Below, piece after piece: positions 2,834 through 64,000 of a stretch of DNA of 64,000 bases. A program made the position numbers and the translations under genes. The stretch comes from Eledone cirrhosa (taxonomy: Eukaryota), in the NCBI GenBank assembly GCA_964016885.1, contig OZ024741.1:117118001-117182000 (forward strand), given 5' to 3'. The first letter of the stretch is position 1; every line of letters begins with the position of its first letter. The notes under the pieces were generated by a model that was given only the letters and a program-made list of their open reading frames with translations, had not been told where the DNA came from and did no database searches.

Positions 2834-3188
2834 GAGAAGAAAGAAGAATACTGCGTGGTTGCACATGGGTTACATATGATAAAATTAATCCTTCGTCAGT
2901 GATTTGCCAACCATCATTGATATTTCGTCGCATTAAAAATCATATATCTTAGGTTGGTGCGAGCAATAACTAAAAAAAAGCTATTGGGACAAGTAAATCG
3001 CGTAAAGCGAGTGAGACAAGTAAACAACATAGAAGGATGAAAGCAACGCAAAGATGGGAATAAACAAGCAACATGGTTATCCGGTCAGCATAAGCTGGGT
3101 GGATTTCATGAGCGATCAACATACAGACCGTCCGACGTGAGTCAGATGTGAGCAAGAAGAGAACCCACTACTAGCCAAACGGGAGGAA

Positions 3189-8960: not shown

Positions 8961-9018
<58 letters not shown>

Positions 9019-9074
9019 GACGTAAAATAAGAAAATTTTAAAAATTAAAAATTAACTTACTTACTAAAATTTTC

Positions 9075-9156
9075 ACTCCAACTAATTAGTTTCTGTAATG
9101 GGATAAATATAGTTACACAATATAACTATCGAGAATTCATTACGTCATCAGGGAGT
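9075..9156 (-). ncRNA. Type I hammerhead with extended stem II
   Basis: Reverse complement: actcc-CUGAUGA-c-gtaatg...cattac-a-GAAA-ctaattag-UU-ggagt. Confidence 0.85.
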
Positions 9157-9608
9157 CTATTCTCAGCTAAGTTCCCAGGCAATGCACGGACACTAGGAAC
9201 CCATATAAAAATAATAATTCAGTGGATGTAATAAGCTAGCGAGGACTAAATTCCATAGCACTGAAAAAGTTCACTGCCTCTGGTCAATGGCAGATTCTAA
9301 AGAATCAATCACGTGACACTGAGGTTAGTCAGTTAGGGGTGGGGTGGTATTATGACAAGAGCCTACTACTACTACTACTATGAATTAGCAGTAGATTTGG
9401 CAAGTTTGTTCAACAAATAATTTGGAGATAAATATGGAGAATTAGTACATCTACCAACATATGCGTACAGATGTACTCTAATGCTAGCAAATATATAAGT
9501 TATGTCAAAGTACCTAGGTGGTTCTATGCAGGGGGATGCAGAACAATTATATGAAAGACGTAAAATAAGAAAATTTTAAAAATTAAAAATTAACTTACTA
9601 AAATTTTC

Positions 9609-9690
9609 ACTCCAACTAATTAGTTTCTGTAATGGGATAAATATAGTTACACAATATAACTATCGAGAATTCATTACGTCATCAGGGAGT
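9609..9690 (-). ncRNA. Type I hammerhead (second copy)
   Basis: Same sequence as 9075-9156. Confidence 0.85.
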
Positions 9691-9897
9691 CTATTCTCAG
9701 CTAAGTTCCCAGGCAATGCGCGGACACTAGGAACCCATATAAAAATAATAATTCAGTGGATGTAATAAGCTAGCGAGGACTAAATTCCATATAATTGTTC
9801 TGCATCCTCCTGCATAGAACCACCTAGGTATTTTGACATAACTTATATATTTGCTAGCATTAGTGTACATCTGTACGCATATGTTGGTAGATGTACT

Positions 9898-10040
<143 letters not shown>

Positions 10041-16363: not shown

Positions 16364-19300
16364 ATGTTTCTTTTATTTGCCACCAGGGCATCAAAAGTGG
16401 GACAAGTACAAAGGGGGGAGTTTACACAAAAAGGCGTCCTCAATAAGGAGGAGGCAATAACAAAATATAAAAATAAAATAAGATATAACAAAAAATAAAA
16501 TTTATAACAAAATCCTCAATAGAGAGGAGGCGCCTTGGGGGGTCGCACACACCCCCGAAAAAAGTGTGCAACCCTTTTCCTCAGGAGCACAGAGAGGGGG
16601 TGCTCCCTCGTTCCTTCCTCTTTTCCACCTACAGGCTTATGTAAAGAGAAGGCCCATTCACACGGGCCATTCTCGCCACTTTCACCCACCTTTCATAAAA
16701 ACGACTGGGGTGGAGCACCTCTCTCTCCATCCTGATCCTTCTTCCGAAATGATATCGGAAGAAACGGACCAGTTGTTGGCCAGAGAGAAAGGTGCCTGAC
16801 CTCAGTCCTTTCAGACGCGTCCACCATACAACCTCTTTCGCCATGGCTATTACGCACAGAAACACCGCCTCTGCTTCATCTTTGAAGGGGGGAGGCGGCT
16901 TGATCATTACAATAGACTCGGTGGTCAACCGGATCGGTCCCACCCTTGACAGCAGTTGTTCGACATAGCCCCACAGATCGGCTACGCCCGAGCAGTGTAC
17001 CAATGCGTGTGCAACGGTTTCCTCGTCGCACACGCATCTGGGACAGATTTTTTTGGCGGGGTCCCTACCCGGGCGCCCGTGTCTGTAGAGCCTTTCTCGA
17101 ACGGGTAAAGCCCCTCGGTAGCACTGCCAGGCCAGGGACTTCTGGAAGTTGTCCATAGGTCCCGGGCTGAATGTCCTACCGAACAGGCTGGCCAGTTCGT
17201 CCTCCTCCATGTCTAGGGCTTCTCCGAGGGCGTCGTCGCACCTGCTGCGTACCAGCCCTCTATAGAATGTTGCGGTGGAGTCTCCACTGATAACCGGATC
17301 CGCCTGCCAGAGGGCGGTGAGCGCCTGGGCACACTCAGTGTGCCAGGCGCCCAGTTTTCTCGGTCTTTGCTTGACCCAGGATTGCAGCTCGGTGAGTGAG
17401 ACGAGTCTGGGAAAGGTTCGTCTCACAAACGAGGCCCACACCGGTTGTCCGGTGAGGAATACGTAGAGGTGCCGTAGCCTTAATGCGTGTTTACGCATCA
17501 TTAGCCACGGCATCCCCAGCCCTCCTTTCGAAGGGTGTTGACAGCAGATGGATCTCCTCACCATAGGAGCCCGCCTCTTCCAAAGGAATTGGAAGAGCGC
17601 GCGCTCCATCTTGGTGAGGGTTTCCCTTGGGCAGGGCACTACGGTCAGGCGGTAGTAGATGACGGACGCTATGTAGGTGTTCGCCACCTCCGCCCGACCT
17701 TTCAGGGGTAGTTTGCAACTGGCCCACTTCTGGGTCAGTGCAAACACCCTGTTCGTAACCTCCGGCCAGTTTTTCTCCACCTGGAGGTCCGGTCCCAACC
17801 AGACCCCGAGCAACTTCACCGGGCCCTCCGTCCAGCGTCCGACGACGCCATCGGAGGGCATCGGTCTGCCCCTCCACATGCCGAGTTGCAAACCGATCGA
17901 CTTGTCCCGGTTCAGCTTAGCCCCTGTGAACTTTTCGTACTCCTCCAGTAAGGTGCCGACCGCCTCGATTTCGGAGGCCGTCGACACCATTACTGTCACG
18001 TCATCGGCGTAGGCCGACACCGCTTTCCGCAATCCCGTTTCCAAAGGGATGCCCTGCAACAACTCCAACTTCCGCAGTAGTGGCTCGAGAGTCAACACAT
18101 ACAGAAGGGAGGAGAGAGGGCACCCTTGTCGGATGGACCGCGCGATTTTGAACGGCTCCGAGAGGTAGCCGTTCACCTTGACCCTAGAGCAGATGCGGCT
18201 GCTGTGCATAGCAGTGATCCAGCCCCTGAAAACGGGTCCGAAGCCTGCCGCCGCTAGCACCGCATCCAGGTAACCATGGTCGACCCTATCGAACGCCTTA
18301 GATTGATCCAAGTTGATCAGAGCCCCACCAAAGCCGGGTTCGTTCCCAACCCTCTCTATGATGTATCGCACGAGGTGGAGGTTGTCATGGATGAACCTGG
18401 ACGGGATAGCGCATGTCTGCGCATCTCCCACCAGGTTGCCCACGACAAGCGCCAACCTCTTTGCTAGCACCTTGGCCAAAATCTGTAACTCTGTATTTAG
18501 CAGTGTTATGGGCCTGAAGTTACTTATTTCGTCCCCCTTGTTCTCGTCCTTCCTCACTAGCGTGACTACGCCCTTGGTCACAGTACAGGGAATTCTCCCG
18601 TTCTGTTGCCAGTTGCAGTAGACCGCCTCGAGGAGATCGGGGAACAAGTCAGGTATAGCTAGATATAATTCGTAAGGAAGACCATCGAGACCCGGGGATT
18701 TGCGTTTGCCGCATTGGCTCAGCACGTCCTCTATCTCAGCGGCCGAAATCGGCTCCTCGCAGGACTTCGCCTCCCTGTCCGAGAGGCGCGGCAGGCCGTC
18801 GAGGTATGGACCGAAGTCCACGTTCCCAACCGGCTCCCCGCCCCTCCCGAACAGTCGGGCAAAGTGCCTTTGAAAGGCCTCACACATCTGCTTAGGCTCA
18901 AGAATCGCCCGTCCATCCAGGTCTCGCAAAGACCGGATAGTGGATTTAGTTCCACTGTTGGCCTCCGTCACGCGGGCCCAGCTAACAGCTTTGGTCCCCT
19001 CGTTCCCTAGAGCACGTATTTTACTTCGGACAACGCAGCCTTCGTGCTTCGCGTCGAAAAACTGGCTCAAAGCCGTTCTCGACGCTAGCACTCTGGCCAC
19101 GTCGCCGCTTCTAATTGCCTCTTCTACTCTATCTATTAGCTCCCTTTCCTTCCTATTCCTATCCGCAGCTAGAACCTTACTAAATTCTATCGAGACTACT
19201 CTAATCTCTCTCTTTAGAGATACCCACCACCTGCTGTTGACGATCGCTCCAGTCAACCGTTCCTTAACTAACGTACTAATCCGATTCCTGTAGGCTCTAC

Positions 19301-20452
19301 TTGCCGGCAAGGACAAGTTGAGCTTCCAGTAACCGGGGCCCTGTCTATGAGTTCTGTCAAGGTTGACCATGCAGGTCACTAATTTGTGGTCTGAATAGCC
19401 AACCATGCGCATTTTTGGACAACTTAAAAAGTCCTTACCCTTAATTCTAACTAAGAACCTATCTAGGTACGACCTAGATGATCCGCTACGATTTGCCCAA
19501 GTCCAGGTTGGCGCAGTCGGAAAATCTAGTCGATATCTATCGGCCAGGTCAAATCGACCGATTAACCCTTTGAGGCTATTACACCCCTCTCTATCGGGGC
19601 AGGCCCCTACGTAGTCCCAGCGTGCATCTAGGATACCATTCCAGTCCCCCACTAATAGCAAGGAGCGGGACGTCCCTAGAAAAGTCTCCAGACGATGGAA
19701 GAAGTCCGGCCGCATTGACCCGAAAGGGCCGTAGGCGGCTACCAACCTAAACGCTCCGCCTTTACCACTGCCAAGGTCCAGAACCACTAGTCGACCCTCC
19801 GGGTCCAAATGTACCATCTGTGTTGCGAGACCCAGATGTTTTTGCAGCAGAACGACAACTCCACCCCCACCTCCGGGCTGACAGAGAGATGCGTGCATCT
19901 CAAAGTCATCAAAGGTGGGGGCCAGCTGTCGCACGTTGCTGATCCGGGCCTCGCAAATAACCATCACATCTATACGTTGTGACCTGAGGTCATTTAGAAG
20001 CATTGCTTGCTTCCAAGTTGAGCCCAGGCCACGCGCATTTAAACAGCCTACTCTTAGCATAGCCATGTTGGTGGTGAAGAGAAAAGGCACTTACCTCTCT
20101 GCGTCCCGGGTATCGGGCTGCACAATTTCCATTAGGGTGGGGGATGGGTTGTTGGGTGGGGTGGTGGTTTGTGGAAGTGTGGGGGCATCAGTGTGTTGTG
20201 TGGTTGGGGAGCTTGGAGTTGTGTGGGTGTTTGGGGAGGGGGTGGGATAGTTTTTTAGGAGGACGCGGTTAATGGGCCCGACGCAGGGGGGGACCCACGT
20301 CCTCTTTAAAATTGTTTTTTAAAGTTTTATAGGTGTCCTGTGGGGCCTTAATCATTTTGAGGTGGGGGAAATCCCCTGCCTGGGTGAAGTTAGGCCCTTG
20401 TGTTTTTATTAGATTGTTGTTGTACACAATGTTTAACAGTTTTTTGTTTCTT
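16364..20452 (-). mobile_element. Tx1/L1-clade non-LTR retrotransposon, 5'-truncated within ORF1
   Basis: Intact ORF2. 3' end aataaaagaaac. Flanked by a duplicated gtaggtaggtagataggt within the TAGG array. Confidence 0.9.
16629..20090 (-). CDS. ORF2: AP-endonuclease + reverse transcriptase + C-terminal zinc finger (probable ATG start near 20067)
   Basis: LNARGL, GDWN, LDRF, SDH (APE); KSPGLDG, FRPITLLN, KAFDRVDH, RQGCPLS, YADD (RT); CPRC..ETVAHALVHC. Confidence 0.95.
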   Translation of the reverse strand: MPFLFTTNMAMLRVGCLNARGLGSTWKQAMLLNDLRSQRIDVMVICEARISNVRQLAPTFDDFEMHASLCQPGGGGGVVVLLQKHLGLATQMVHLDPEGRLVVLDLGSGKGGAFRLVAAYGPFGSMRPDFFHRLETFLGTSRSLLLVGDWNGILDARWDYVGACPDREGCNSLKGLIGRFDLADRYRLDFPTAPTWTWANRSGSSRSYLDRFLVRIKGKDFLSCPKMRMVGYSDHKLVTCMVNLDRTHRQGPGYWKLNLSLPASRAYRNRISTLVKERLTGAIVNSRWWVSLKREIRVVSIEFSKVLAADRNRKERELIDRVEEAIRSGDVARVLASRTALSQFFDAKHEGCVVRSKIRALGNEGTKAVSWARVTEANSGTKSTIRSLRDLDGRAILEPKQMCEAFQRHFARLFGRGGEPVGNVDFGPYLDGLPRLSDREAKSCEEPISAAEIEDVLSQCGKRKSPGLDGLPYELYLAIPDLFPDLLEAVYCNWQQNGRIPCTVTKGVVTLVRKDENKGDEISNFRPITLLNTELQILAKVLAKRLALVVGNLVGDAQTCAIPSRFIHDNLHLVRYIIERVGNEPGFGGALINLDQSKAFDRVDHGYLDAVLAAAGFGPVFRGWITAMHSSRICSRVKVNGYLSEPFKIARSIRQGCPLSSLLYVLTLEPLLRKLELLQGIPLETGLRKAVSAYADDVTVMVSTASEIEAVGTLLEEYEKFTGAKLNRDKSIGLQLGMWRGRPMPSDGVVGRWTEGPVKLLGVWLGPDLQVEKNWPEVTNRVFALTQKWASCKLPLKGRAEVANTYIASVIYYRLTVVPCPRETLTKMERALFQFLWKRRAPMVRRSICCQHPSKGGLGMPWLMMRKHALRLRHLYVFLTGQPVWASFVRRTFPRLVSLTELQSWVKQRPRKLGAWHTECAQALTALWQADPVISGDSTATFYRGLVRSRCDDALGEALDMEEDELASLFGRTFSPGPMDNFQKSLAWQCYRGALPVRERLYRHGRPGRDPAKKICPRCVCDEETVAHALVHCSGVADLWGYVEQLLSRVGPIRLTTESIVMIKPPPPFKDEAEAVFLCVIAMAKEVVWWTRLKGLRSGTFLSGQQLVRFFRYHFGRRIRMEREVLHPSRFYERWVKVARMARVNGPSLYISL

Positions 20453-24610: not shown

Positions 24611-25875
<1,265 letters not shown>

Positions 25876-27213
25876 CTTGCGTATGTAATTAAGTTTTTCG
25901 TTAAGCTTATGAATGATATTAAGAAATCTAGGTCTTCCAATAACACTTTCGTTCTTTCTGACAACACCAATATATTTACGAAGTCGACAACACTACTTAC
26001 AGCCACTTGGCGCATAACGCTATTACTCCTAAATATAAGAAGGCTAATCCTATGGCCTACCACGACATCAATACAGAGGCCAAAGACCTTGCTGCCGCCC
26101 TTAAGGTAGATAAGAAGCCACAATGCTTAGCTAAGGGTGAGGCGTTTCTCACCCTGAAGGATCACAAGGTAGACTTTGCTTCTAATCCCACGTGCAGACT
26201 ACTAAACCCGATACGCACGGAAATGTGACTAGTCAGTAAGGCTATACTTAGAAACATAGTTAAGACCATTAGGACCAAGTCCACCTGTCCCAGTGGGAGA
26301 ACAGCTACTCCGTCATTAAGTGTTTTAACTCCTTCAACTCCAAAAAAGCGAAGTTCACGCAATTCGACATTGTAGATTTTTACTCGTCAATCTCAGAGAC
26401 CCTGTTAAACAAAGCGTTGCACTTTGCTACTTCTTACACTACCGTCCATGTTTTAGACAGGGAAATCATCGCTCACTGCCGGAAAACCCGCCTCTTCAAC
26501 AATGGAGCAGTCTGGGAAAAGAAGTCAACCACTTCAGAACTATTCGACGTCTCCATGGGATCGTTTGACAGTGCTGACGTATGCGACTTGGTTGACCTAT
26601 ATATTTCAGACATATTAGGTGTTAGATTCCCGGACTTCCACACGGGAATATACCGTGACGATGGATTGACTTTATTTAGCCATAAAAGTGGTCACGACCT
26701 CGACCGGTTTAAAAAAGACTTAGCTTCTACCTTCAATGAGTTAGGACTTAGGATAACAGTAGCTACCAACTTCTCTAGCGTAGATTTCTTAGACATTAAT
26801 TTAAACCTTCGCACACATACCTTCAGACCCTTCCATAAACTTAACGAAAGACTTAATTACATACACAAGGACTCATGCTACCCTCCTAATGTTTTTAGAA
26901 ACTTCGTAAATAATATCAGTACTAGAATCTCTAACCTCTCCTCTAATAAGGCTATCTTTGACAGAGAGGCACCCTACTATAACACGGCATTAGCTAACAC
27001 GGCTTCTCGCAACCAATTACTTACTCCCCACTAACAACAACAGCAATAAGAAAAGAAATCGTAACAATAGACAAATTATCTGGTTCTCTCCTCCCTTCTC
27101 ACTCAACGTTAAAACTAGGAATGTAGGGGAAAACATGTTAGCCCTCTTAGATAGACACTTTCCCACAGGCCACAAATACCGCTCCATCTTTAACAGACAA
27201 AGAGTAAAACTAG
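25876..27213 (+). pseudogene. Penelope-like (Naiad-type) reverse transcriptase, disrupted
   Basis: TLKDHK..F..NPTCRLLNP, FDIVDFY, FDVSMGSFDSADVCDLV, IYRDDGL, VDFLDINLNL, IWFSPPFS. Contains stops and frameshifts. Confidence 0.9.
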
Positions 27214-33060: not shown

Positions 33061-33063
<3 letters not shown>

Positions 33064-35888
33064 TTTAACAAACTATAAAGTAGGTGAACATGTTAAACAA
33101 ACTAAACTTAGAAAATTGAAAAAAAAGTACAGTATAAGATCAACATGTGACATAGACATGCTGATAGAAACAATCAAGCAAAAAGTGTCGGCCAAAGCTG
33201 CTCGTATAAGGCGCTTTGAAAAACGATCTAGATTCTATAAGGATAATAATATGTTCAAAAACAACCAAAGAAACTTCTACAGAAAAATTGGTAAGTCAAC
33301 AATAACTGCTAAATCAATACCACCCAAGGAGGAAGTGCAAGAATTCTGGGAAAAGATCTGGGCCGAAGAAAAAGTTCATAACATACATGCCCCATGGATA
33401 GACAGACAAATGAAAGAAACAGCTCACCTTGAAGAACAAACATGGGAAAATATAACAGTTGAACAGCTGCGCTTGGCTCTAAGAAAAACCAGCAAATGGA
33501 AATCCCCAGGAAAAGACAAAATACAAAACTTTTGGATAAATGCCTTCACAGAGTCTCATGAGCTGTTAGCCCAACTTTACAATGAAATAGTTAAGGAGCC
33601 AGAAAAGATACCATCATGGCTAGTCAACGGCATTACATTCCTGCTACCGAAGAATGATGAGACAAACAATCCCAAAAATTACAGACCGATAACCTGCTTG
33701 ACCACAATGTATAAAATTTTAACATCAGTCCTAACTGAATACACATATGACCACCTGATAACAAATGACCTATTTCCCATTGAGCAGAAAGGGTGTAAAC
33801 GAGGCTCATATGGCTGTAAGGATCAGCTTCTGGTTAACAAAATGATACTGGAAGATTGTCATAATAGACACAAAAATCTATCGATTGCTTGGATAGATTA
33901 TAAAAAAGCATTTGATAGTTTGCCACACAGTTGGATTGAAAAATGTTTAGAGATTTTCAAAATATCCCCCGTTGTCAGGAGGTTTTTGTCATTCAGTATG
34001 AGGACATGGAGAACGACACTCCTTTTGAATAGTGAAACAAAATCACTGGAAGCTGGAGAAGTTAACATTAATTGTGGAATTTTTCAGGGTGACTCTTTAT
34101 CACCGCTTTTATTCTGCATCGCACTTATACCATTAAGTAAAATGCTCAATGAAACAAAACATGGATATAGAGTCTATGACAAAACCATTAATCACCTGTT
34201 CTACATGGATGACCTGAAACTATTTGCAAAAAATGATGAACAATTGCAAGGGCTATTATCCACTGTGAAGCAGTTCAGTGATGACATTAAAATGGAGTTT
34301 GGACTGGATAAATGCGCCAAAGCAACGTTCACCAGAGGAAAGCTGCTGAAGAGTTCAGACATTAATCTTGATCGGGGGAACGTGATAAGAGAGCTTGATC
34401 AAGAACAAACTTACAAATATCTAGGTGTTTGTGAAGGAGACGGAATCAAGCACTCGACAATGAGGGAGAGGATAAGGAAGGAATGTTACCGCAGAGTCAG
34501 AGCAATCTTAAGAACGGAATTGAATGCAAGGAATAGGATCGATGCCATAAACACGCTTGCCATACCAGTAGTAACCTACAGTTACAATGTCATCAACTGG
34601 TCAAGCACAGAGATCCGTAGGCTCGATACAAAAATCCGAAAATTCTTAACCATGCACAGAATGCATCACCCTAAGGCAGACATAGATAGAATATATCTCC
34701 CTAGGAAAGAAGGAGGACGTGGGTTAATCCAGTTAGACATTGCGTTGAAAACTGCAACAATTGGATTATCCACATATCTAAGGGAATCACATGATTGGAT
34801 GATCAAACTCGTTTTGAAACACGAAAGCACCAAAAGATCATATTCCATTACAAAAGATGCACAAAGATACAGTAATGGACTACAAATTTCAGAAGTCCCA
34901 TTTACTGCTGAAATGGAAAACACAGAAAAAGCAAAGCAGGTAAAAGTAACTGCAAAGAAAGAACTGCTACAGAAACTGGCTAAGAAATGGCAAGAAAAGC
35001 CTCTGTATGGAAAATACCCAGAGCGAGCTAACAATCCTGATGTTGACAAAACTTTAACCCATCAGTGGTTGGCATCCTCTGGACTGAAATCGGAGACTGA
35101 AGGACTGATTATATCCGCACAAGATCAGTGTCTGCCAACAAAAAATTACCAAGCCAACATAATAAAAAATGGGTGCAGCCCACTATGCCGTGTATGCAAA
35201 AAACAACCAGAGACCATTGACCATATAATTTCAATGTGCAGTCCCATAGCTCCAACCGAATACCTAAACAGGCATGACAGAGCTGCACAATACATACATT
35301 GGATAATGTGTAAGCATTTTGACCTGCCCCATCAAAAGAATTGGTGGGAGCATCAACCACCTCCCATACTTGAAAAAGATCACATCTCAATCTTGTGGAA
35401 CTTTAGCATCCAAACAGACCGAAAAATAGATGCAAATAGACCTGATATAATATTGAAGGACTTTCAAAGGAGGGTATGCCTGCTAATTGATATGTCTGTT
35501 CCAATAGACAAGAATGTATCTATAAAAACATTTGAAAAATTGAGCAAGTATAAGGACCTGGAGATAGAAATTGGAAAAATGTGGAAATTGAGAACTAAAA
35601 CAATACCAGTGGTTGTAGGCGCTCTGGGAATGATACCTAAGGGGTCTAACGACTACTTATCGCAAATCCCAGGAAACCCGCGTATAGGAGAAATACAAAA
35701 GATAGTACTAATGGGAACTGCCCATATACTAAGGAAGATCCTGTCAATATAAGTACATCACAAGTCTAAACACTAAGGATGCATGTGTGAATATGTGTGT
35801 TCTTTCTTGAACATGGCGGACCTTGTTGTCTCTTGAGGTCACTGGTTGTGACTTGGTGATAACTCGTATATAAAGCAAGATAAATGCA

Positions 35889-47587: not shown

Positions 47588-47918
47588 AAGAATGAGAAAT
47601 TAGATAGATTGAAAGGACGGGCGGTTGGAATTGGAAAAAATGTCTTTAGATAAATATAACAGGTCCATTCATGTTGACATCTCTTGGAAACATATATATA
47701 TATATATATATGTGCAAAAGTTGTATTTAATTTGTTGGGATTCAACAAGTTTAAAAGTTTTATAACTGATATAAAGCACTCAACAGTTTACTGGAGTAAA
47801 TATTCAATATATTAATAAAGCGAAACTATATTTATAAAACCATAATTATTGACGGAGAACCTTCAACCGTCAATGTTGTTTTTCTGCGGCTATGTCAACA
47901 TTTATAAAACAAATTTTG

Positions 47919-47984
47919 TATTTTATCTGATGAAAGCGCACCAAAATTTGCCTTGGTTGCCCTTGAAATATATATAATAAAATA
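47919..47984 (+). ncRNA. Type I hammerhead in TA-flanked element 47711-48027
   Basis: tattttat-CUGAUGA-aagcgcaccaa...ttggttgccctt-GAAA-tatata-UA-ataaaata. Confidence 0.8.
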
Positions 47985-48022
47985 ATTATGGTTTTATAAA
48001 TATAGTTTCCATTTATTAATAT

Positions 48023-48132
<110 letters not shown>

Positions 48133-48279
48133 GATAGATAAATATTTACGGGTGTGTATGATTGTGTATAGAAGATTATATTAATAAAAGGAATTCCAAC
48201 TTTGTCTGATTTACTCGTTTTATTTACAATCCTTTAAAATTTATAATGGTATTAGAATGAAATAGTATGAACAAGTAAT

Positions 48280-48318
48280 TGAACAAGTACTTTCATGCTT
48301 TCGCAATCTTCAGGTTCA
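48280..48318 (-). ncRNA. Minimal type I hammerhead
   Basis: Reverse complement: tgaac-CUGAAGA-t-tgc-gaaa-gca-t-GAAA-gtac-UU-gttca. Confidence 0.85.
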
Positions 48319-48458
48319 TAATGTGTGGTGACAGTCAAGTTTGCAATTTTCAACTATATATATATATATATATGCAAAGAGATATTTAATTTGTTGGTGA
48401 TTCAACAAATTTATTTATAACAGATTCGAAGCACTCTACAATTTTTCTGGAGTATAAT

Positions 48459-48809
48459 ATCAATGATATTAATTAATGGAAACTATATTTACAAAACCAT
48501 ATTTATTTTATTATATATATTTCAAGAGCACCAAAATTTTGGTACGCTTTCATCAGATAAAATACAAAATTTGTTTTATAAATGGTGACATACCCAAGAA
48601 ACCAGACCTTATTGCTTCAGGTTCAGTTTGGACTTTCCAAACTGAACCTGAACCAATAAGGTCTGGTTTCTTGGGTATGTCACCATTTATAAAACAAATT
48701 TTGTATTTTATCTGATGAAAGCGTACCAAAATTTTGGTGCCTTTGAAATATATATAATAAAATAAATATGCTTTTATAAATATAGTTTCCATTTATTAAT
48801 ATCATTGAT
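48459..48809. repeat. ~350-bp near-perfect palindrome (centre 48634) with HHRs at 48504-48564 (-) and 48704-48764 (+)
   Basis: Arms are reverse complements around a 3-nt loop. Each arm reads tattttat-CUGAUGA-...-GAAA-tatata-UA-ataaaata. Confidence 0.9.
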
Positions 48810-48827
48810 ATGTATATATATATATAT

Positions 48828-49586
48828 AATATAAGATCAAAAGATGGTTAAAAGAGTTCCATGTATTTTATTATGCGCATTTCAAAAACAAACATCATCA
48901 TGCAATAATACTTGTGTTTTCATCAGATAAAACAGGAGAACATGATATGAAGGCTAAAAAACACTTGTGGATAGTGCAGTTTTAAATCAACATATGAAAA
49001 GTGGTTTTAGATTGATGTGTGATATTGGGAAAAATATTTTATTTAGAGAGGGGGGGGGAAGGATGAAAAAGGGAAGGAGATGAGAGGGAGAGATGGGTGA
49101 TAGAGAGAAAGAGATAGTTTTTATAACTGAGAGAAGATATATTGTTTTACATAGAGAGGTTGAAAACCGTTGGAAGATAATGTATAAATTAAAAGAATTT
49201 GAAAATTAGCGAAGGGAAAGATATGTACGAGGAAAAAATATTTTATTTAGGGAGGGAGGGGGTGGAAAGGATGAAAAAAGGGGGAGATGAGAGTGAAGGT
49301 GGAGAGGGAGAGATGGGTGATAGAGAGAAAGAGATAGTTTTTATAACTGCACTATCCACAAGTGTTTTTTAGCCTTCATATCATGTTCTCCTGTTTTATC
49401 TGATGAAAACACAAGTATTATTGCATGATGATGTTTGTTTTTGAAATGCGCATAATAAAATACATGGAACTCCTTTAACCATCTTTTGATCTTATATTAT
49501 GTATACTCCAGTCCTACAAACTGTAGAGTGCTTCTTATCCGATATCTGCATTGCTTTATTGTACTACAATAAAACTCACCTCCTAC

Positions 49587-51725: not shown

Positions 51726-51983
51726 GAGAGAGAATTAGTATATTACCAACATATATATACAGATGCATACCTATGCTAGCAAATATATAGGTTTTGTCTT
51801 AGTAACTTTGTGGTTCAATGCAAGGGGATGCAGAACAATAATATGAAAGACGTAAAATAAGAAAATTGTGATTTTTTCAATGTCTTGGAACTTAGTCCAC
51901 GCTTTGCTTTTTTCCATGCACTGAATTATTTTTGTATAAGTTCCCTGTGTCCACGCATTGCCTGGGAACTTAGCTGAGAATAG

Positions 51984-52066
51984 ACTTCCCTGATGACGAA
52001 AGGATTTCTCCGTGGGTTTCTTCGGAAACCATGTTTATTCCCTTTCAGAAACTAATTAGTTGCAGT
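51984..52066 (+). ncRNA. Type I hammerhead in a divergent relative (51733-52116) of the 9011-9902 element
   Basis: CUGAUGA-c-gaaagg...cctttc-a-GAAA-ctaattag-UU. Stem I partly mismatched. Confidence 0.75.
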
Positions 52067-52110
52067 GAAATTTTAGTAAGTTAATTTTTATAATTTTCTA
52101 ATTTTACGTC

Positions 52111-52140
<30 letters not shown>

Positions 52141-52146
<6 letters not shown>

Positions 52147-55100
52147 GAGAGGTATAGAGATTGTTTTAGCAAGAAGCTAACGGCATTCTATAACATATAT
52201 GCGACTATAACGTCAAGATGGGAAAAGTAGTTAACGAAAGATTTAGGAAAAATAACTCAAACTCATCTCAAAAGAGAATCAGGATATAAATTCATCCACA
52301 GAATTTAGCAAAATCCAGGGAAAATCTATAGACCTTTAACTCATGATAAAATAAAGTTTGAAACACTTATCCTTCAATTTGGAATAACATCAAATGCTCT
52401 GTATAGTCTTAAAAGACTATTTCATGAAAACTTTCAGTGGAGATGGTCACGGTTGGAATTTCAATCATCAGCAGAGCTCAACAGAAAACCAGGGCTCTCA
52501 CAGTAATATAATCCGAAAAAGGGAATTCTAAAACTGGCTAGTTCGCCTTCATGTGTATTTATGAAAAAGCACATGAGGAAAAAACGGGGCTAGTGACGTC
52601 AGGATGGAAGTGAATGTTTATTTACAAGAAATAGCAGTCAAATACATTCTGAAAAAAACTCTACAAAGGAGTTCAGCAAAATAGCAATATTATCACAGTT
52701 TTTATGAAAAAAACCGGGATTAGTCACAGATAGTTTAAGCACTCTAGGAAAAGAATCCGAGTATAAATATAAATGAGAGGTATAGAGATTGTTTTAGCAA
52801 GAAGCTAACGGCATTCTATAACATATATGCGACTATAACGTCAAGATGGGAAAAGTAGTTAACGAAAGATTTAGGAAAAATAACTCAAACTCATCTCAAA
52901 AGAGAATCAGGATATAAATTCATCCACAGAATTTAGCAAAATCCAGGGAAAATCTATAGACCTTTAACTCATGATAAAATAAAGTTTGAAACACTTATCC
53001 TTCAATTTGGAATAACATCAAATGCTCTGTATAGTCTTAAAAGACTATTTCATGAAAACTTTCAGTGGAGATGGTCACGGTTGGAATTTCAATCATCAGC
53101 AGAGCTCAACAGAAAACCAGGGCTCTCACAGTAATATAATCCGAAAAAGGGAATTCTAAAACTGGCTAGTTCGCCTTCATGTGTATTTATGAAAAAGCAC
53201 ATGAGGAAAAAACGGGGCTAGTGACGTCAGGATGGAAGTGAATGTTTATTTATAAGAAATAGCAGTCAAATACATTCTGAAAAAAACTCTACAAAGGAGT
53301 TCAGCAAAATAGCAATATTATCACAGTTTTTATGAAAAAAACCGGGATTAGTCACAGATAGTTTAAGCACTCTAGGAAAAGAATCCGAGTATAAATATAA
53401 ATGAGAGGTATAGAGATTGTTTTAGCAAGAAGCTAACGGCATTCTATAACATATATGCGACTATAACGTCAAGATGGGAAAAGTAGTTAACGAAAGATTT
53501 AGGAAAAATAACTCAAACTCATCTCAAAAGAGAATCAGGATATAAATTCATCCACAGAATTTAGCAAAATCCAGGGAAAATCTATAGACCTTTAACTCAT
53601 GATAAAATAAAGTTTGAAACACTTATCCTTCAATTTGGAATAACATCAAATGCTCTGTATAGTCTTAAAAGACTATTTCATGAAAACTTTCAGTGGAGAT
53701 GGTCACGGTTGGAATTTCAATCATCAGCAGAGCTCAACAGAAAACCAGGGCTCTCACAGTAATATAATCCGAAAAAGGGAATTCTAAAACTGGCTAGTTC
53801 GCCTTCATGTGTATTTATGAAAAAGCACATGAGGAAAAAACGGGGCTAGTGACGTCAGGATGGAAGTGAATGTTTATTTACAAGAAATAGCAGTCAAATA
53901 CATTCTGAAAAAAACTCTACAAAGGAGTTCAGCAAAATAGCAATATTATCACAGTTTTTATGAAAAAAACCGGGATTAGTCACAGATAGTTTAAGCACTC
54001 TAGGAAAAGAATCCGAGTATAAATATAAATGAGAGGTATAGAGATTGTTTTAGCAAGAAGCTAACGGCATTCTATAACATATATGCGACTATAACGTCAA
54101 GATGGGAAAAGTAGTTAACGAAAGATTTAGGAAAAATAACTCAAACTCATCTCAAAAGAGAATCAGGATATAAATTCATCCACAGAATTTAGCAAAATCC
54201 AGGGAAAATCTATAGACCTTTAACTCATGATAAAATAAAGTTTGAAACACTTATCCTTCAATTTGGAATAACATCAAATGCTCTGTATAGTCTTAAAAGA
54301 CTATTTCATGAAAACTTTCAGTGGAGATGGTCACGGTTGGAATTTCAATCATCAGCAGAGCTCAACAGAAAACCAGGGCTCTCACAGTAATATAATCCGA
54401 AAAAGGGAATTCTAAAACTGGCTAGTTCGCCTTCATGTGTATTTATGAAAATGCACATGAGGAAAAAACGGGGCTAGTGACGTCAGGATGGAAGTGAATG
54501 TTTATTTACAAGAAATAGCAGTCAAATACATTCTGAAAAAAACTCTACAAAGGAGTTCAGCAAAATAGCAATATTATCACAGTTTTTATGAAAAAAACCG
54601 GGATTAGTCACAGATAGTTTAAGCACTCTAGGAAAAGAATCCGAGTATAAATATAAATGAGAGGTATAGAGATTGTTTTAGCAAGAAGCTAACGGCATTC
54701 TATAACATATATGCGACTATAACGTCAAGATGGGAAAAGTAGTTAACGAAAGATTTAGGAAAAATAACTCAAACTCATCTCAAAAGAGAATCAGGATATA
54801 AATTCATCCACAGAATTTAGCAAAATCCAGGGAAAATCTATAGACCTTTAACTCATGATAAAATAAAGTTTGAAACACTTATCCTTCAATTTGGAATAAC
54901 ATCAAATGCTCTGTATAGTCTTAAAAGACTATTTCATGAAAACTTTCAGTGGAGATGGTCACGGTTGGAATTTCAATCATCAGCAGAGCTCAACAGAAAA
55001 CCAGGGCTCTCACAGTAATATAATCCGAAAAAGGGAATTCTAAAACTGGCTAGTTCGCCTTCATGTGTATTTATGAAAAAGCACATGAGGAAAAAACGGG

Positions 55101-55312
55101 GCTAGTGACGTCAGGATGGAAGTGAATGTTTATTTACAAGAAATAGCAGTCAAATACATTCTGAAAAAAACTCTACAAAGGAGTTCAGCAAAATAGCAAT
55201 ATTATCACAGTTTTTATGAAAAAAACCGGGATTAGTCACAGATAGTTTAAGCACTCTAGGAAAAGAATCCGAGTATAAATATAAATGAGAGGTATAGAGA
55301 TTGTTTTAGCAA
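52141..55312 (-). mobile_element. Tandem array of 5 x 628-bp units plus ~30 bp; non-LTR retrozyme-like element
   Basis: aaatgagagg recurs at 52143, 52771, 53399, 54027, 54655 and 55283. One HHR per unit, no ORF of 60 aa or more, flanked by (TA)n. Confidence 0.9.
52396..52477 (-). ncRNA. Canonical type I hammerhead (also at 53024-53105, 53652-53733, 54280-54361, 54908-54989)
   Basis: Reverse complement: gctctg-CUGAUGA-t-tgaaa...tttca-t-GAAA-tagtctt-tt-aagacta-UA-cagagc. Confidence 0.92.
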
Positions 55313-55314
55313 TC

Positions 55315-58130
<2,816 letters not shown>

Positions 58131-58180
58131 GGGTTTGGGTATTTTTTTAATCCATTTCGTTTTCCATAATTATGTGGCAG

Positions 58181-63084: not shown

Positions 63085-63495
63085 CTTTAATCAAGAGCTT
63101 TGTGCTGCCGACAGTGCTTTACGCGAGCGAAACCTGGAAGAGCACGGAAAAGATAGAGAGAGGGCAGAACGCTTTCCACCAGCGGTGCCTGCGAATGATC
63201 CTTTGTGTGTCCTGGCGCGACCGAGTGCGAAACGGTTGTGGACTCTACAGAGAATGGTCACCGGTGCCGCCTGGCTGGCCATATTCTGCGCCTGCCCGAC
63301 GAACGACACTCGAAAACAGCGATGAACTGGACGGCACCTGGCGGCAAACGGGGGCGGGTTGCCCCAGGATCATCTGGCGACGAACGTTCTGAAAAGACCT
63401 CATTTCGAACGGACGTGAAAAAACTGCCACTGATCATGACAGTTGGCGACTACTAACTGCACGATTCGCCGAATGGCGCGGAAGAACCTAAGACT
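63085..63495 (+). pseudogene. RTE-like LINE C-terminal fragment
   Basis: LPTVLYASETW...AFHQRCLRMIL.VSWRDRVRN, RLAGHILR. Confidence 0.75.
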
Positions 63496-63519
63496 AAGAT
63501 ATATATATATATATTGGAA

Positions 63520-64000
63520 AATGCTTCTAATCCCACTTGTAGACTACTGAACCCGGCGCGTACAAAGATGGGGCAAATTAGTAAAGCTATACTTAGGAAT
63601 ATAGTTAAGACTATTAGAACTAAGTCCAACCTGTCCCAATGGGAGAACAGTGAGTCTTTCGTTAAGTGGTTCAACTCTTTCAGCTCCAAAAAATCAAAAT
63701 TCACTCAATTCGACATTGTGGATTTTTATCCGTCGATCTCGGCGACCCTGTTGAACAAAGCGTTGGATTTTGCTACAACTTACACCGTCGTCCATGATTT
63801 AGACAGGGAGATCATTGCACATTGACGGAAAACTCTCTTCTTCAACAACGGAGTAGCCTGGACAAAGAAATCAACTACTTCAGAACTATTCGACGTATCA
63901 ATGAGATCATTCTATAGTGCTGATATATGTTACTTGGATGGCTTATATATTTTAGATACGTTGCGAACTAGATTCCCGGACCTCCACACGGGCTTATACC
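63520..64000 (+). pseudogene. Penelope-like (Naiad-type) RT fragment, same family as 25876-27213, running off the window
   Basis: NPTCRLLNP...QWENS...KFTQFDIVDFYPSIS. In-frame TGA at 63823-63825. Confidence 0.88.

What the first reader, a model, noticed from the sequence alone, without database searches (positions are those of the whole stretch)
52141..55312. Very young 5 x 628-nt hammerhead tandem array: a large retrozyme / circular RNA replicon
Seen: five head-to-tail 628-bp units, with only two substitutions noticed by eye (near 53253 and 54452), ~30 bp terminal redundancy, (TA)n on both sides and no ORF. Each unit has a canonical type I HHR on the minus strand (6-bp stem I, 7-bp stem III, intact core, AUA site; predicted cut between 52402 and 52401, then every 628 nt). 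Established: animal non-LTR retrozymes are HHR tandem repeats processed to monomeric circular RNAs and linked to Penelope elements; those I recall are about 170-400 nt. Inference: a 628-nt monomer/circRNA was copied by rolling-circle reverse transcription into a (TA)n target, giving an unusually large, recently active, probably cephalopod retrozyme.
Basis: partly seen in the sequence, partly recalled or inferred. Interest (0 to 1): 0.92.

Follow-up and report, generated by a model that had tools for sequence, protein, structure and literature searches.

The report
Hammerhead retrozyme riding Hydra-type Penelope elements
This is one copy of a 628-base non-coding repeat that carries a predicted self-cutting RNA and sits in over 900 TA microsatellites of this genome; it likely spreads as an RNA circle copied by a Penelope-like retrotransposon, a known kind of element whose copying signal may be visible here.

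Summary
Observation confirmed: 5 x 628 bp plus 31 nt at 52142-55312, with a type I hammerhead on the minus strand of each unit. It is not a single locus: the genome has 924 exact starts in (TA)n and 281 junction matches. Insertions begin at one fixed base, end at random, and run through the predicted cut site (1 of 49 stop there). Rare variants are often shared by all units of one insertion; all five units here carry C168, seen once elsewhere. This fits rolling reverse transcription of a monomer circle, though long arrays also grow by local duplication. The class is known (animal non-LTR retrozyme), and 628 nt is inside the published 51-972 bp range. The '30-bp redundancy' is just where copying stopped. 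New: a short stem 6-9 nt 3' of the start site is shared with Hydra-clade Penelope-like elements, one family of which is intact and equally young; it is the likely mobiliser. The motif was defined post hoc, and cleavage, circles and host taxon are untested. The scan noted a similar TA-inserted tandem repeat without a hammerhead in another genome.

The parts
52142..55312 (-). Retrozyme insertion: five 628-bp units (52142-52769, 52770-53397, 53398-54025, 54026-54653, 54654-55281) plus 31 nt; the RNA strand is minus
52115..52143 (.). (TA)n target at the fixed end; inferred primer for cDNA synthesis
   Evidence: 924 exact (TA)|start matches genome-wide; priming is inferred
55313..55440 (.). 3 extra bases (TCG) and (TA)n at the variable end
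52396..52477 (-). Type I hammerhead, unit 1; predicted cut between 52402 and 52401; U10.1.U11.1
53024..53105 (-). Type I hammerhead, unit 2 (H17 at 53030)
53652..53733 (-). Type I hammerhead, unit 3 (H17 at 53658)
54280..54361 (-). Type I hammerhead, unit 4 (H17 at 54286)
54908..54989 (-). Type I hammerhead, unit 5 (H17 at 54914)
52762..52774 (-). Inferred reverse-transcription start site at the unit junction (repeats every 628 nt): 9 of 10 bases match (TA)5; predicted single-stranded in the circle
   Evidence: sequence
52738..52762 (-). Stem just 3' of the start site (ACUC-GGA..UCC-UA-GAGU, then GCU); the same closing motif follows the fixed ends of Hydra-clade elements; repeats every 628 nt
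   Evidence: function inferred, descriptor post hoc
52309..52309 (+). C168, shared by all five units (52309, 52937, 53565, 54193, 54821); the family has T
52713..52728 (-). 16-nt block conserved across subfamilies 80-99% alike; antisense to the 5' region of the young Hydra family (weak: 7 of 150 shuffles)
52594..52601 (.). TGACGTCA palindrome kept in 25 of 26 diverse units; candidate promoter element (CRE label recalled, untested)

Best explanation
This array is one insertion of a dispersed, non-coding, hammerhead-bearing repeat family that likely moves as a 628-nt RNA circle, likely reverse-transcribed into TA microsatellites by a Hydra-clade Penelope-like element. Steps: (1) inferred: insertions holding two whole ribozymes (about 963 nt or more; 10 of 91 sampled) are transcribed on the minus strand. 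(2) Predicted: the hammerheads cut out a 628-nt monomer that a host ligase closes. (3) Inferred: the Hydra protein binds a stem just 3' of the start site, nicks (TA)n, and the nicked end anneals to a 9-of-10 TA-complementary site 260 nt 3' of the cut. (4) Shown as a genomic pattern: copies begin at that one base, pass the cut site without stops or indels, and end at random (roughly exponential, mean about 500 nt), so most insertions are under one unit and about a fifth exceed one. (5) Shown: some long arrays later grew by local duplication, which may also have contributed here.
For: Dispersal: 924 starts, 281 junction matches, control 0. Fixed start: 49 of 51 insertions, including 12 of 12 new loci found by the ribozyme region. 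Lengths of the first 91 listed starts on contig C1: median 295, 20 over one unit, exponential fit p=0.72; 1 of 49 end within 5 nt of the cut, 0 of 12 at the second cut; 60 of 60 cut-site spans have no indel. One template per insertion: in 38 insertions of 1-2 units, subfamily markers are in both copies 31 times and in one copy 7 times; 10 rare variants are in both copies. C168: 5 matches here, 1 elsewhere. A122: 2 in one insertion, 1 elsewhere. Ribozyme maintained: 97.4% of cells paired, two compensatory pairs between families; core variation mostly at N7. Mobiliser: young Hydra family with an intact 710-aa ORF and RWK, DKT, CxCX5C, CxxC, CxH motifs, median 99.65% copy identity, (TA)n ends; one of its two ends reads TCATT|TATA like this family; shared stem after the start, found once in the unit, at +7 from the junction. 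Internal RT initiation is shown in vitro for another Penelope-like element (PMC11167929).
Against: No RNA, cleavage or circle was observed. In PMC11167929 the ribozyme was dispensable and uncut RNA was the main template; in Li et al. 8 of 9 retrozyme dimers did not cleave in vitro. This subfamily has U.U at 10.1-11.1, and stem II has only about 0.08 probability in the folded circle. No alignable homology to the ends of four Hydra families was found beyond short motifs; other Penelope clades were not searched. The stem descriptor was written after seeing these sequences; the 534-bp family and one Hydra family fit it only loosely. 41 rare variants are in one copy only, and gene conversion or a parent absent from this assembly could explain shared ones. 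Arrays of five or more units exceed the exponential expectation (about 2 by my calculation; at least 5 seen), and several carry duplicated units.
Confidence: 0.68

Rival explanations
1. Same mobiliser, but the template is linear: an uncut multimeric transcript, or cut monomers joined by precise template jumps; the hammerhead is then incidental.
For: Uncut RNA was the main substrate for the anole element; many retrozyme ribozymes were inactive in vitro; read-through of the cut site fits uncut RNA equally well.
Against: The stem lies 3' of the start and is not copied at the fixed end, so a linear template would give daughters at least one unit shorter than the parent (inference), yet the lineage kept about 628 nt across 20% divergence. 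No multi-unit parent carrying C168 or A122 is in the assembly. No indels at the cut. The ribozyme shows compensatory changes.
Confidence: 0.17
2. The family is mobile as described, but this five-unit array was built mostly by local DNA duplication of a shorter insertion (not exclusive of the best explanation).
For: Variants shared by subsets of units in L031, L040, L032, L166, L206 and repeated unit pairs in L052/L054; L168 and L169 share a flank and differ by one unit; excess of long arrays.
Against: Here both variants are singletons and none marks a subset; about 2 such arrays are expected from the length curve alone (calculated).
Confidence: 0.3
3. A viroid-like RNA replicon that copies itself RNA-to-RNA and is only occasionally integrated.
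For: Array-wide variants lack a genomic parent; mussel circles did not match database entries and RNA replication was raised there; the minus strand folds better than shuffles (z -4.4; plus strand -2.7).
Against: Ribozyme on one strand only; many insertions match the family majority exactly, unlike a quasispecies; transcription or RT error and unsampled parents suffice.
Confidence: 0.05
4. Assembly artefact or ordinary satellite at one locus.
For: The count of five units rests on this assembly alone.
Against: 924 dispersed starts on both strands; the 628-to-1 junction is in contigs of three public runs from two studies (one may be the source sample); two units are distinguishable.
Confidence: 0.03

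Closest known systems
Animal non-LTR retrozymes (Cervera and de la Pena 2020, PMC7229834; Li, Clavereau and Pollet 2026, 10.64898/2026.07.22.740005)
   Same: Tandem non-coding units, type I hammerhead in each unit, GC about 33%, dimers to multimers, coexistence with Penelope-like elements; length inside the reported 51-972 bp.
   Different: Here a fixed start, (TA)n targeting, length curve and a candidate recognition stem are mapped; PMC7761336 states that animal retrozymes show no motif pointing to their mobiliser. No pLTR homology was found, unlike 24 of 57 Xenopus families with TE matches. Circles and cleavage untested.
Hydra-clade Penelope-like elements (Craig et al. 2021, PMC8557442)
   Same: (TA)n insertion, type I hammerhead, fixed 3' end with 5' truncation, partial tandems, occasional inversions; shared stem after the start site.
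   Different: The repeat has no ORF and no alignable homology to four local Hydra families; it has one start site where the local Hydra families show two.
Poseidon element PAc of the green anole (Frangieh et al. 2024, PMC11167929)
   Same: Reverse transcription starts inside the RNA, downstream of the hammerhead, at AT-rich targets.
   Different: PAc starts at a site not homologous to the target; here the start has 9 of 10 bases matching (TA)n. PAc is autonomous and of another clade.
Non-autonomous Chlamys elements such as MRC1 (Craig et al. 2021)
   Same: Non-coding Penelope-type passengers with multicopy head-to-tail insertions in microsatellites.
   Different: Those generally resemble their partner at the 3' end, and most Chlamys lack canonical hammerheads.

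Membership tests
Animal non-LTR retrozyme | Tandem repeat with a complete type I hammerhead in two or more consecutive units | tested here: met
   5 of 5 units; 96-nt region folds at -18.1 kcal/mol, below the -5 cut-off of Li et al.
Animal non-LTR retrozyme | No protein coding, low GC, no LTR | tested here: met
   No frame of 100 aa or more; GC 0.32-0.34; ends are a fixed start and a random stop
Animal non-LTR retrozyme | Dispersed monomers, dimers and multimers; coexisting autonomous Penelope-like elements | tested here: met
Animal non-LTR retrozyme | Self-cleavage and accumulation of monomeric circular RNA | not testable with these tools
   Needs in vitro transcription and northern blot or divergent RT-PCR
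Type I hammerhead ribozyme | Core C3-A9, G12-A14, A15.1-U16.1, H17 with stems I-III, ends in stem I | tested here: met
   0 of 5000 shuffles
Type I hammerhead ribozyme | Watson-Crick pair at 10.1-11.1 | tested here: not met
   U.U in this subfamily, A-U in 31 of 36 aligned rows; U.U is a known natural variant (PMC3088659)
Type I hammerhead ribozyme | Match to an Rfam hammerhead model at gathering score | tested here: not met
   0 matches in the window; other descriptor-positive hammerheads in the window were missed as well
Type I hammerhead ribozyme | Loop 1-loop 2 tertiary contact | not tested
   Loop 2 is long and conserved; no contact was modelled
Penelope-type insertion | Fixed 3' end, 5' truncation, partial tandems, (TA)n target | tested here: met
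   TA within 6 nt of the far end in 74 of 91
Penelope-type insertion | Target-site duplication | tested here: inconclusive
   8 of 91 show a repeated interrupted tract; pure TA hides the rest
pLTR-derived non-autonomous Penelope element (Li et al. 2026) | Sequence homology to the pLTR of an autonomous family | tested here: inconclusive
   None with four Hydra families beyond short motifs; the searches scored only 61-150 of tens of thousands of candidates and no other clade was searched
Hydra clade (for the candidate mobiliser, L297) | C-terminal GIY-YIG-type nuclease, RWK, DKT, CxCX5C, CxxC and CxH, hammerhead, (TA)n ends | tested here: met
   by motifs only, no tree built; repeat unit about 4.1-4.3 kb, longer than the usual <3 kb
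Viroid-like replicon | Ribozymes in both polarities | tested here: not met
   Descriptor: 1 hit on minus, 0 on plus; only hammerheads and Rfam families were sought
Single-locus satellite DNA | Confined to one or a few arrays | tested here: not met
   924 dispersed starts

The most novel reading that the evidence does not exclude
A short stem closed by RCUC/GAGY, 6-9 nt 3' of a TA-complementary site, is the recognition signal that sets internal reverse-transcription starts for Hydra-clade Penelope elements. This 628-nt circle carries the signal and is copied in laps by the young intact Hydra family of the same genome. That would name the mobiliser and cis-signal of an animal retrozyme and give a minimal circle-to-genome insertion system.
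Probability: 0.4. Interest if true: 0.72.

Novelty: new member of a known kind. Interest (0 to 1): 0.5.

Why it matters
Retrozyme circles are known, but their reverse transcription and their mobiliser are hypotheses (PMC7229834 discussion; PMC7761336), and the mechanism of Penelope tandem formation is open (PMC8557442). This family supplies about 900 young insertions with one start base, a measurable read-length curve, an intact coeval enzyme and a candidate cis-signal. That makes a direct in vitro test possible. As a locus the array itself is ordinary: one of hundreds, of a published class and size.

Tried and rejected
No RNA holder listed for the unit; this says nothing on expression. Rfam scan: 0 matches. 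Pfam scan of four window Penelope fragments: 0 families; clade was assigned from motifs. Two older Hydra families and two young ones show no alignable homology to the unit, so direct pLTR derivation was not shown. The 80% hit beside a Hydra ORF in L098 is a sister-family insertion in a TA tract, not a pLTR. A suspected family lacking the cut site (loose ends) was not seen among the 30 loci read of 532 pattern matches. The first pair count used a mis-registered structure and is void; one search replaces it. The two compensatory pairs are probably one event each between related families, so the shuffle values are not probabilities. The antisense match to the Hydra 5' region is weak (7 of 150 shuffles). 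Far-end TA microhomology (3 nt or more in 25 of 91 against 42 of 628 positions) is inflated by alignment run-on and is not used. 'Unusually large' and 'terminal redundancy' were rejected. Host taxon was not tested. Earlier-note look-ups by place and by sequence gave nothing.

Full report
Observation. The array runs from 52142 to 55312: five 628-bp units plus 31 nt, differing only at 53253 and 54452, between (TA)n tracts, with no frame of 100 aa. Each unit has a minus-strand type I hammerhead with H17 at 52402 + 628n. A matching descriptor hits 0 of 5000 shuffled units and not the plus strand. Rfam gives no match at gathering score. The 10.1-11.1 position is U.U, a natural variant according to PMC3088659 (passages). 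In the folded circle stems I and III form with probability 0.8-1.0 and stem II with about 0.08; locally the full hammerhead fold lies 0.4 kcal/mol above the minimum.

A dispersed family. The unit search gave 2327 candidates, of which 40 were scored, yielding 112 matches on many contigs. Exact patterns give 924 (TA)|start matches and 281 junction-type matches, controls 0. In one search, 49 of 51 insertions begin at the same base in (TA)n (duplicate views of one array were dropped first; two begin mid-unit), including all 12 new loci found through the ribozyme region. Relatives at 85-91% and 77-80% identity keep the start, the junction and a unit of 623-636 nt. Across 36 ribozyme rows 97.4% of cells pair, with compensatory changes at the first pair of stem I and the second pair of stem II; these are probably single events between families. 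Core variation is mostly at N7. Contigs of four public runs under four organism codes hold the unit or a part of it; three hold the 628-to-1 junction, and all listed contigs read T at position 168 (contigs drop rare variants and one run may be the source).

How insertions end. I read the first 91 of the 100 listed starts on contig C1 (selection needs an exact 22-mer, and a few are segmental duplicates). Median length is 295 nt; 20 exceed one unit, 7 exceed two, 2 exceed three. Beyond 120 nt the lengths fit an exponential of mean 509 (p 0.72); the longest was censored at 3171. Only 1 of 49 insertions reaching the predicted cut ends within 5 nt of it, 0 of 12 at the second cut, and 60 of 60 cut-site spans have no indel. 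A cut linear monomer is therefore not the usual template, since copying from the start would run off after 260 nt (inference). The 31-nt redundancy is one such random end.

One template per insertion. In 38 insertions of between one and two units, subfamily markers occur in both copies 31 times and in one copy 7 times; rare variants occur in both copies 10 times and in one copy 41 times. All five window units carry C168, which matches once elsewhere, in one unit of another subfamily. A122 occurs in both copies of L011 and once elsewhere. L178 has a private deletion of about 29 nt in both full units. This fits one circle read more than once. Gene conversion or a parent missing from this assembly could mimic it. 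Against a pure one-step origin of long arrays, several show variants in subsets of units, and arrays of five or more units (at least 5 seen) exceed the roughly 2 that I calculate from the curve. The window array is too young to tell.

The mobiliser. The genome is rich in Penelope-like elements (39,130, 53,250 and 91,832 first-look candidates). A search with a distant homologue (61 scored under a stricter filter) found a family with a 710-aa intact ORF bearing the Hydra motifs listed in PMC8557442 section 11, median copy identity 99.65%, a hammerhead and two fixed ends in (TA)n; its second-end motif has 1494 matches. The retrozyme copies sampled have median divergence 0.43%, so the two are coeval. 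No alignable homology links them. But one Hydra end reads TCATT|TATA, as the retrozyme start does, and 6-9 nt 3' of the fixed ends in three Hydra families lies a stem closed by RCUC/GAGY followed by RCU. The retrozyme has it once, 7 nt after the junction; 154 of 5000 shuffles hold it anywhere, about 0.0005 for a given 8-nt window. It is kept in 19 of 26 diverse units. The descriptor is post hoc, a fourth Hydra family and the 534-bp repeat fit only loosely, and the closest sequence match is to an older family (median 94% identity), so the exact partner is open.

Mechanism. Shown: dispersal, fixed start, random ends, read-through of the cut, shared variants, maintained ribozyme structure, an intact coeval Hydra family. 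Inferred or predicted: transcription, cleavage, circularisation, binding of the stem, priming by annealing to 9 of 10 TA-complementary bases in a predicted single-stranded stretch. Because the stem lies outside the copied end, a linear template would shorten the lineage by a unit each round; a circle would not (inference). Against the circle: for the anole element the ribozyme was dispensable in vitro, and 8 of 9 Xenopus dimers did not cleave.

What is known. Li et al. 2026 (parts 1-3 of 5 read; supplements not seen, and they may list comparable families) give 51-972 bp units and tie retrozymes to pLTRs. PMC7229834 (passages and sections 14 and 17) shows circles in coral, mussel and axolotl and proposes Penelope-driven tandem cDNA. 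PMC7761336 (passages) says no motif points to the mobiliser. PMC8557442: passages, section 11 and a supplement search; its hammerhead file S2 was not read. PMC11167929: parts 1-2 of 4. PMC6962438: passages only. In seven searches and the texts I read I saw no report of this stem or of such an end analysis; most listed papers were seen only as listings, and subscription journals are not covered.

Verdict. A new member of a known kind, ordinary in class and size, with unusually clear genomic evidence on mechanism and a testable candidate signal. Interest 0.5.

Noticed in passing
window 9015-9900 and 51735-52114: A second hammerhead repeat family (period about 534-538 bp; ribozymes at 9151 and 9685, minus strand) starting in (TA)n, with an inverted piece; a degenerate relative (74-86% alike) sits directly left of the array. 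Its junction has a similar stem (GUUC/GAAC).
   Followed up: partly
window 47700-49500: Five further type I hammerheads (47927+, 48556-, 48712+, 48926-, 49400+) in inverted-repeat elements between TA tracts; two more candidates at 8709- and 48313-.
   Followed up: no
window 55441-58180 (minus); 25097-27034; 63457-63825: Broken Hydra-type Penelope elements. The family right of the array has two fixed ends, and no intact hammerhead of its own was found by my descriptor.
   Followed up: partly
L297-L316, L327-L342 (e.g. G000:C28:46942992-46945106): Very young, intact Hydra-clade family with about 2 kb of microsatellite-rich non-coding sequence that holds a second hammerhead-like core; a second young family (L319-L326, median 98.5% identity).
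   Followed up: partly
window 52713-52728 versus L298 5' region: One of the two longest conserved blocks of the unit is antisense to the young Hydra 5' region (17 of 18 pairs, -25.9 kcal/mol; 7 of 150 shuffles score as high). Possible RNA docking, shared DNA motif, or chance.
   Followed up: partly
window 16629-20090 (minus) and 33062-35752 (minus): Long open LINE-type ORFs (1153 aa and 896 aa); the first is flanked by (GGTA)n tracts. Class labels recalled, not tested.
   Followed up: no
L168 and L169 (G000:C1:205116703 and C1:205455418): Same far flank and end point but one unit different in length: copy-number change by recombination in a duplicated segment.
   Followed up: no
L208, L209, L213 (G000:C1:162565498-162568615): A sister-family insertion duplicated locally together with its flanks (period about 1.4 kb).
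   Followed up: no
one search runs X1, X3, X7: Contigs with 0-1 differences from the unit occur under three organism codes; close relatives or recent transfer, not resolved.
   Followed up: no
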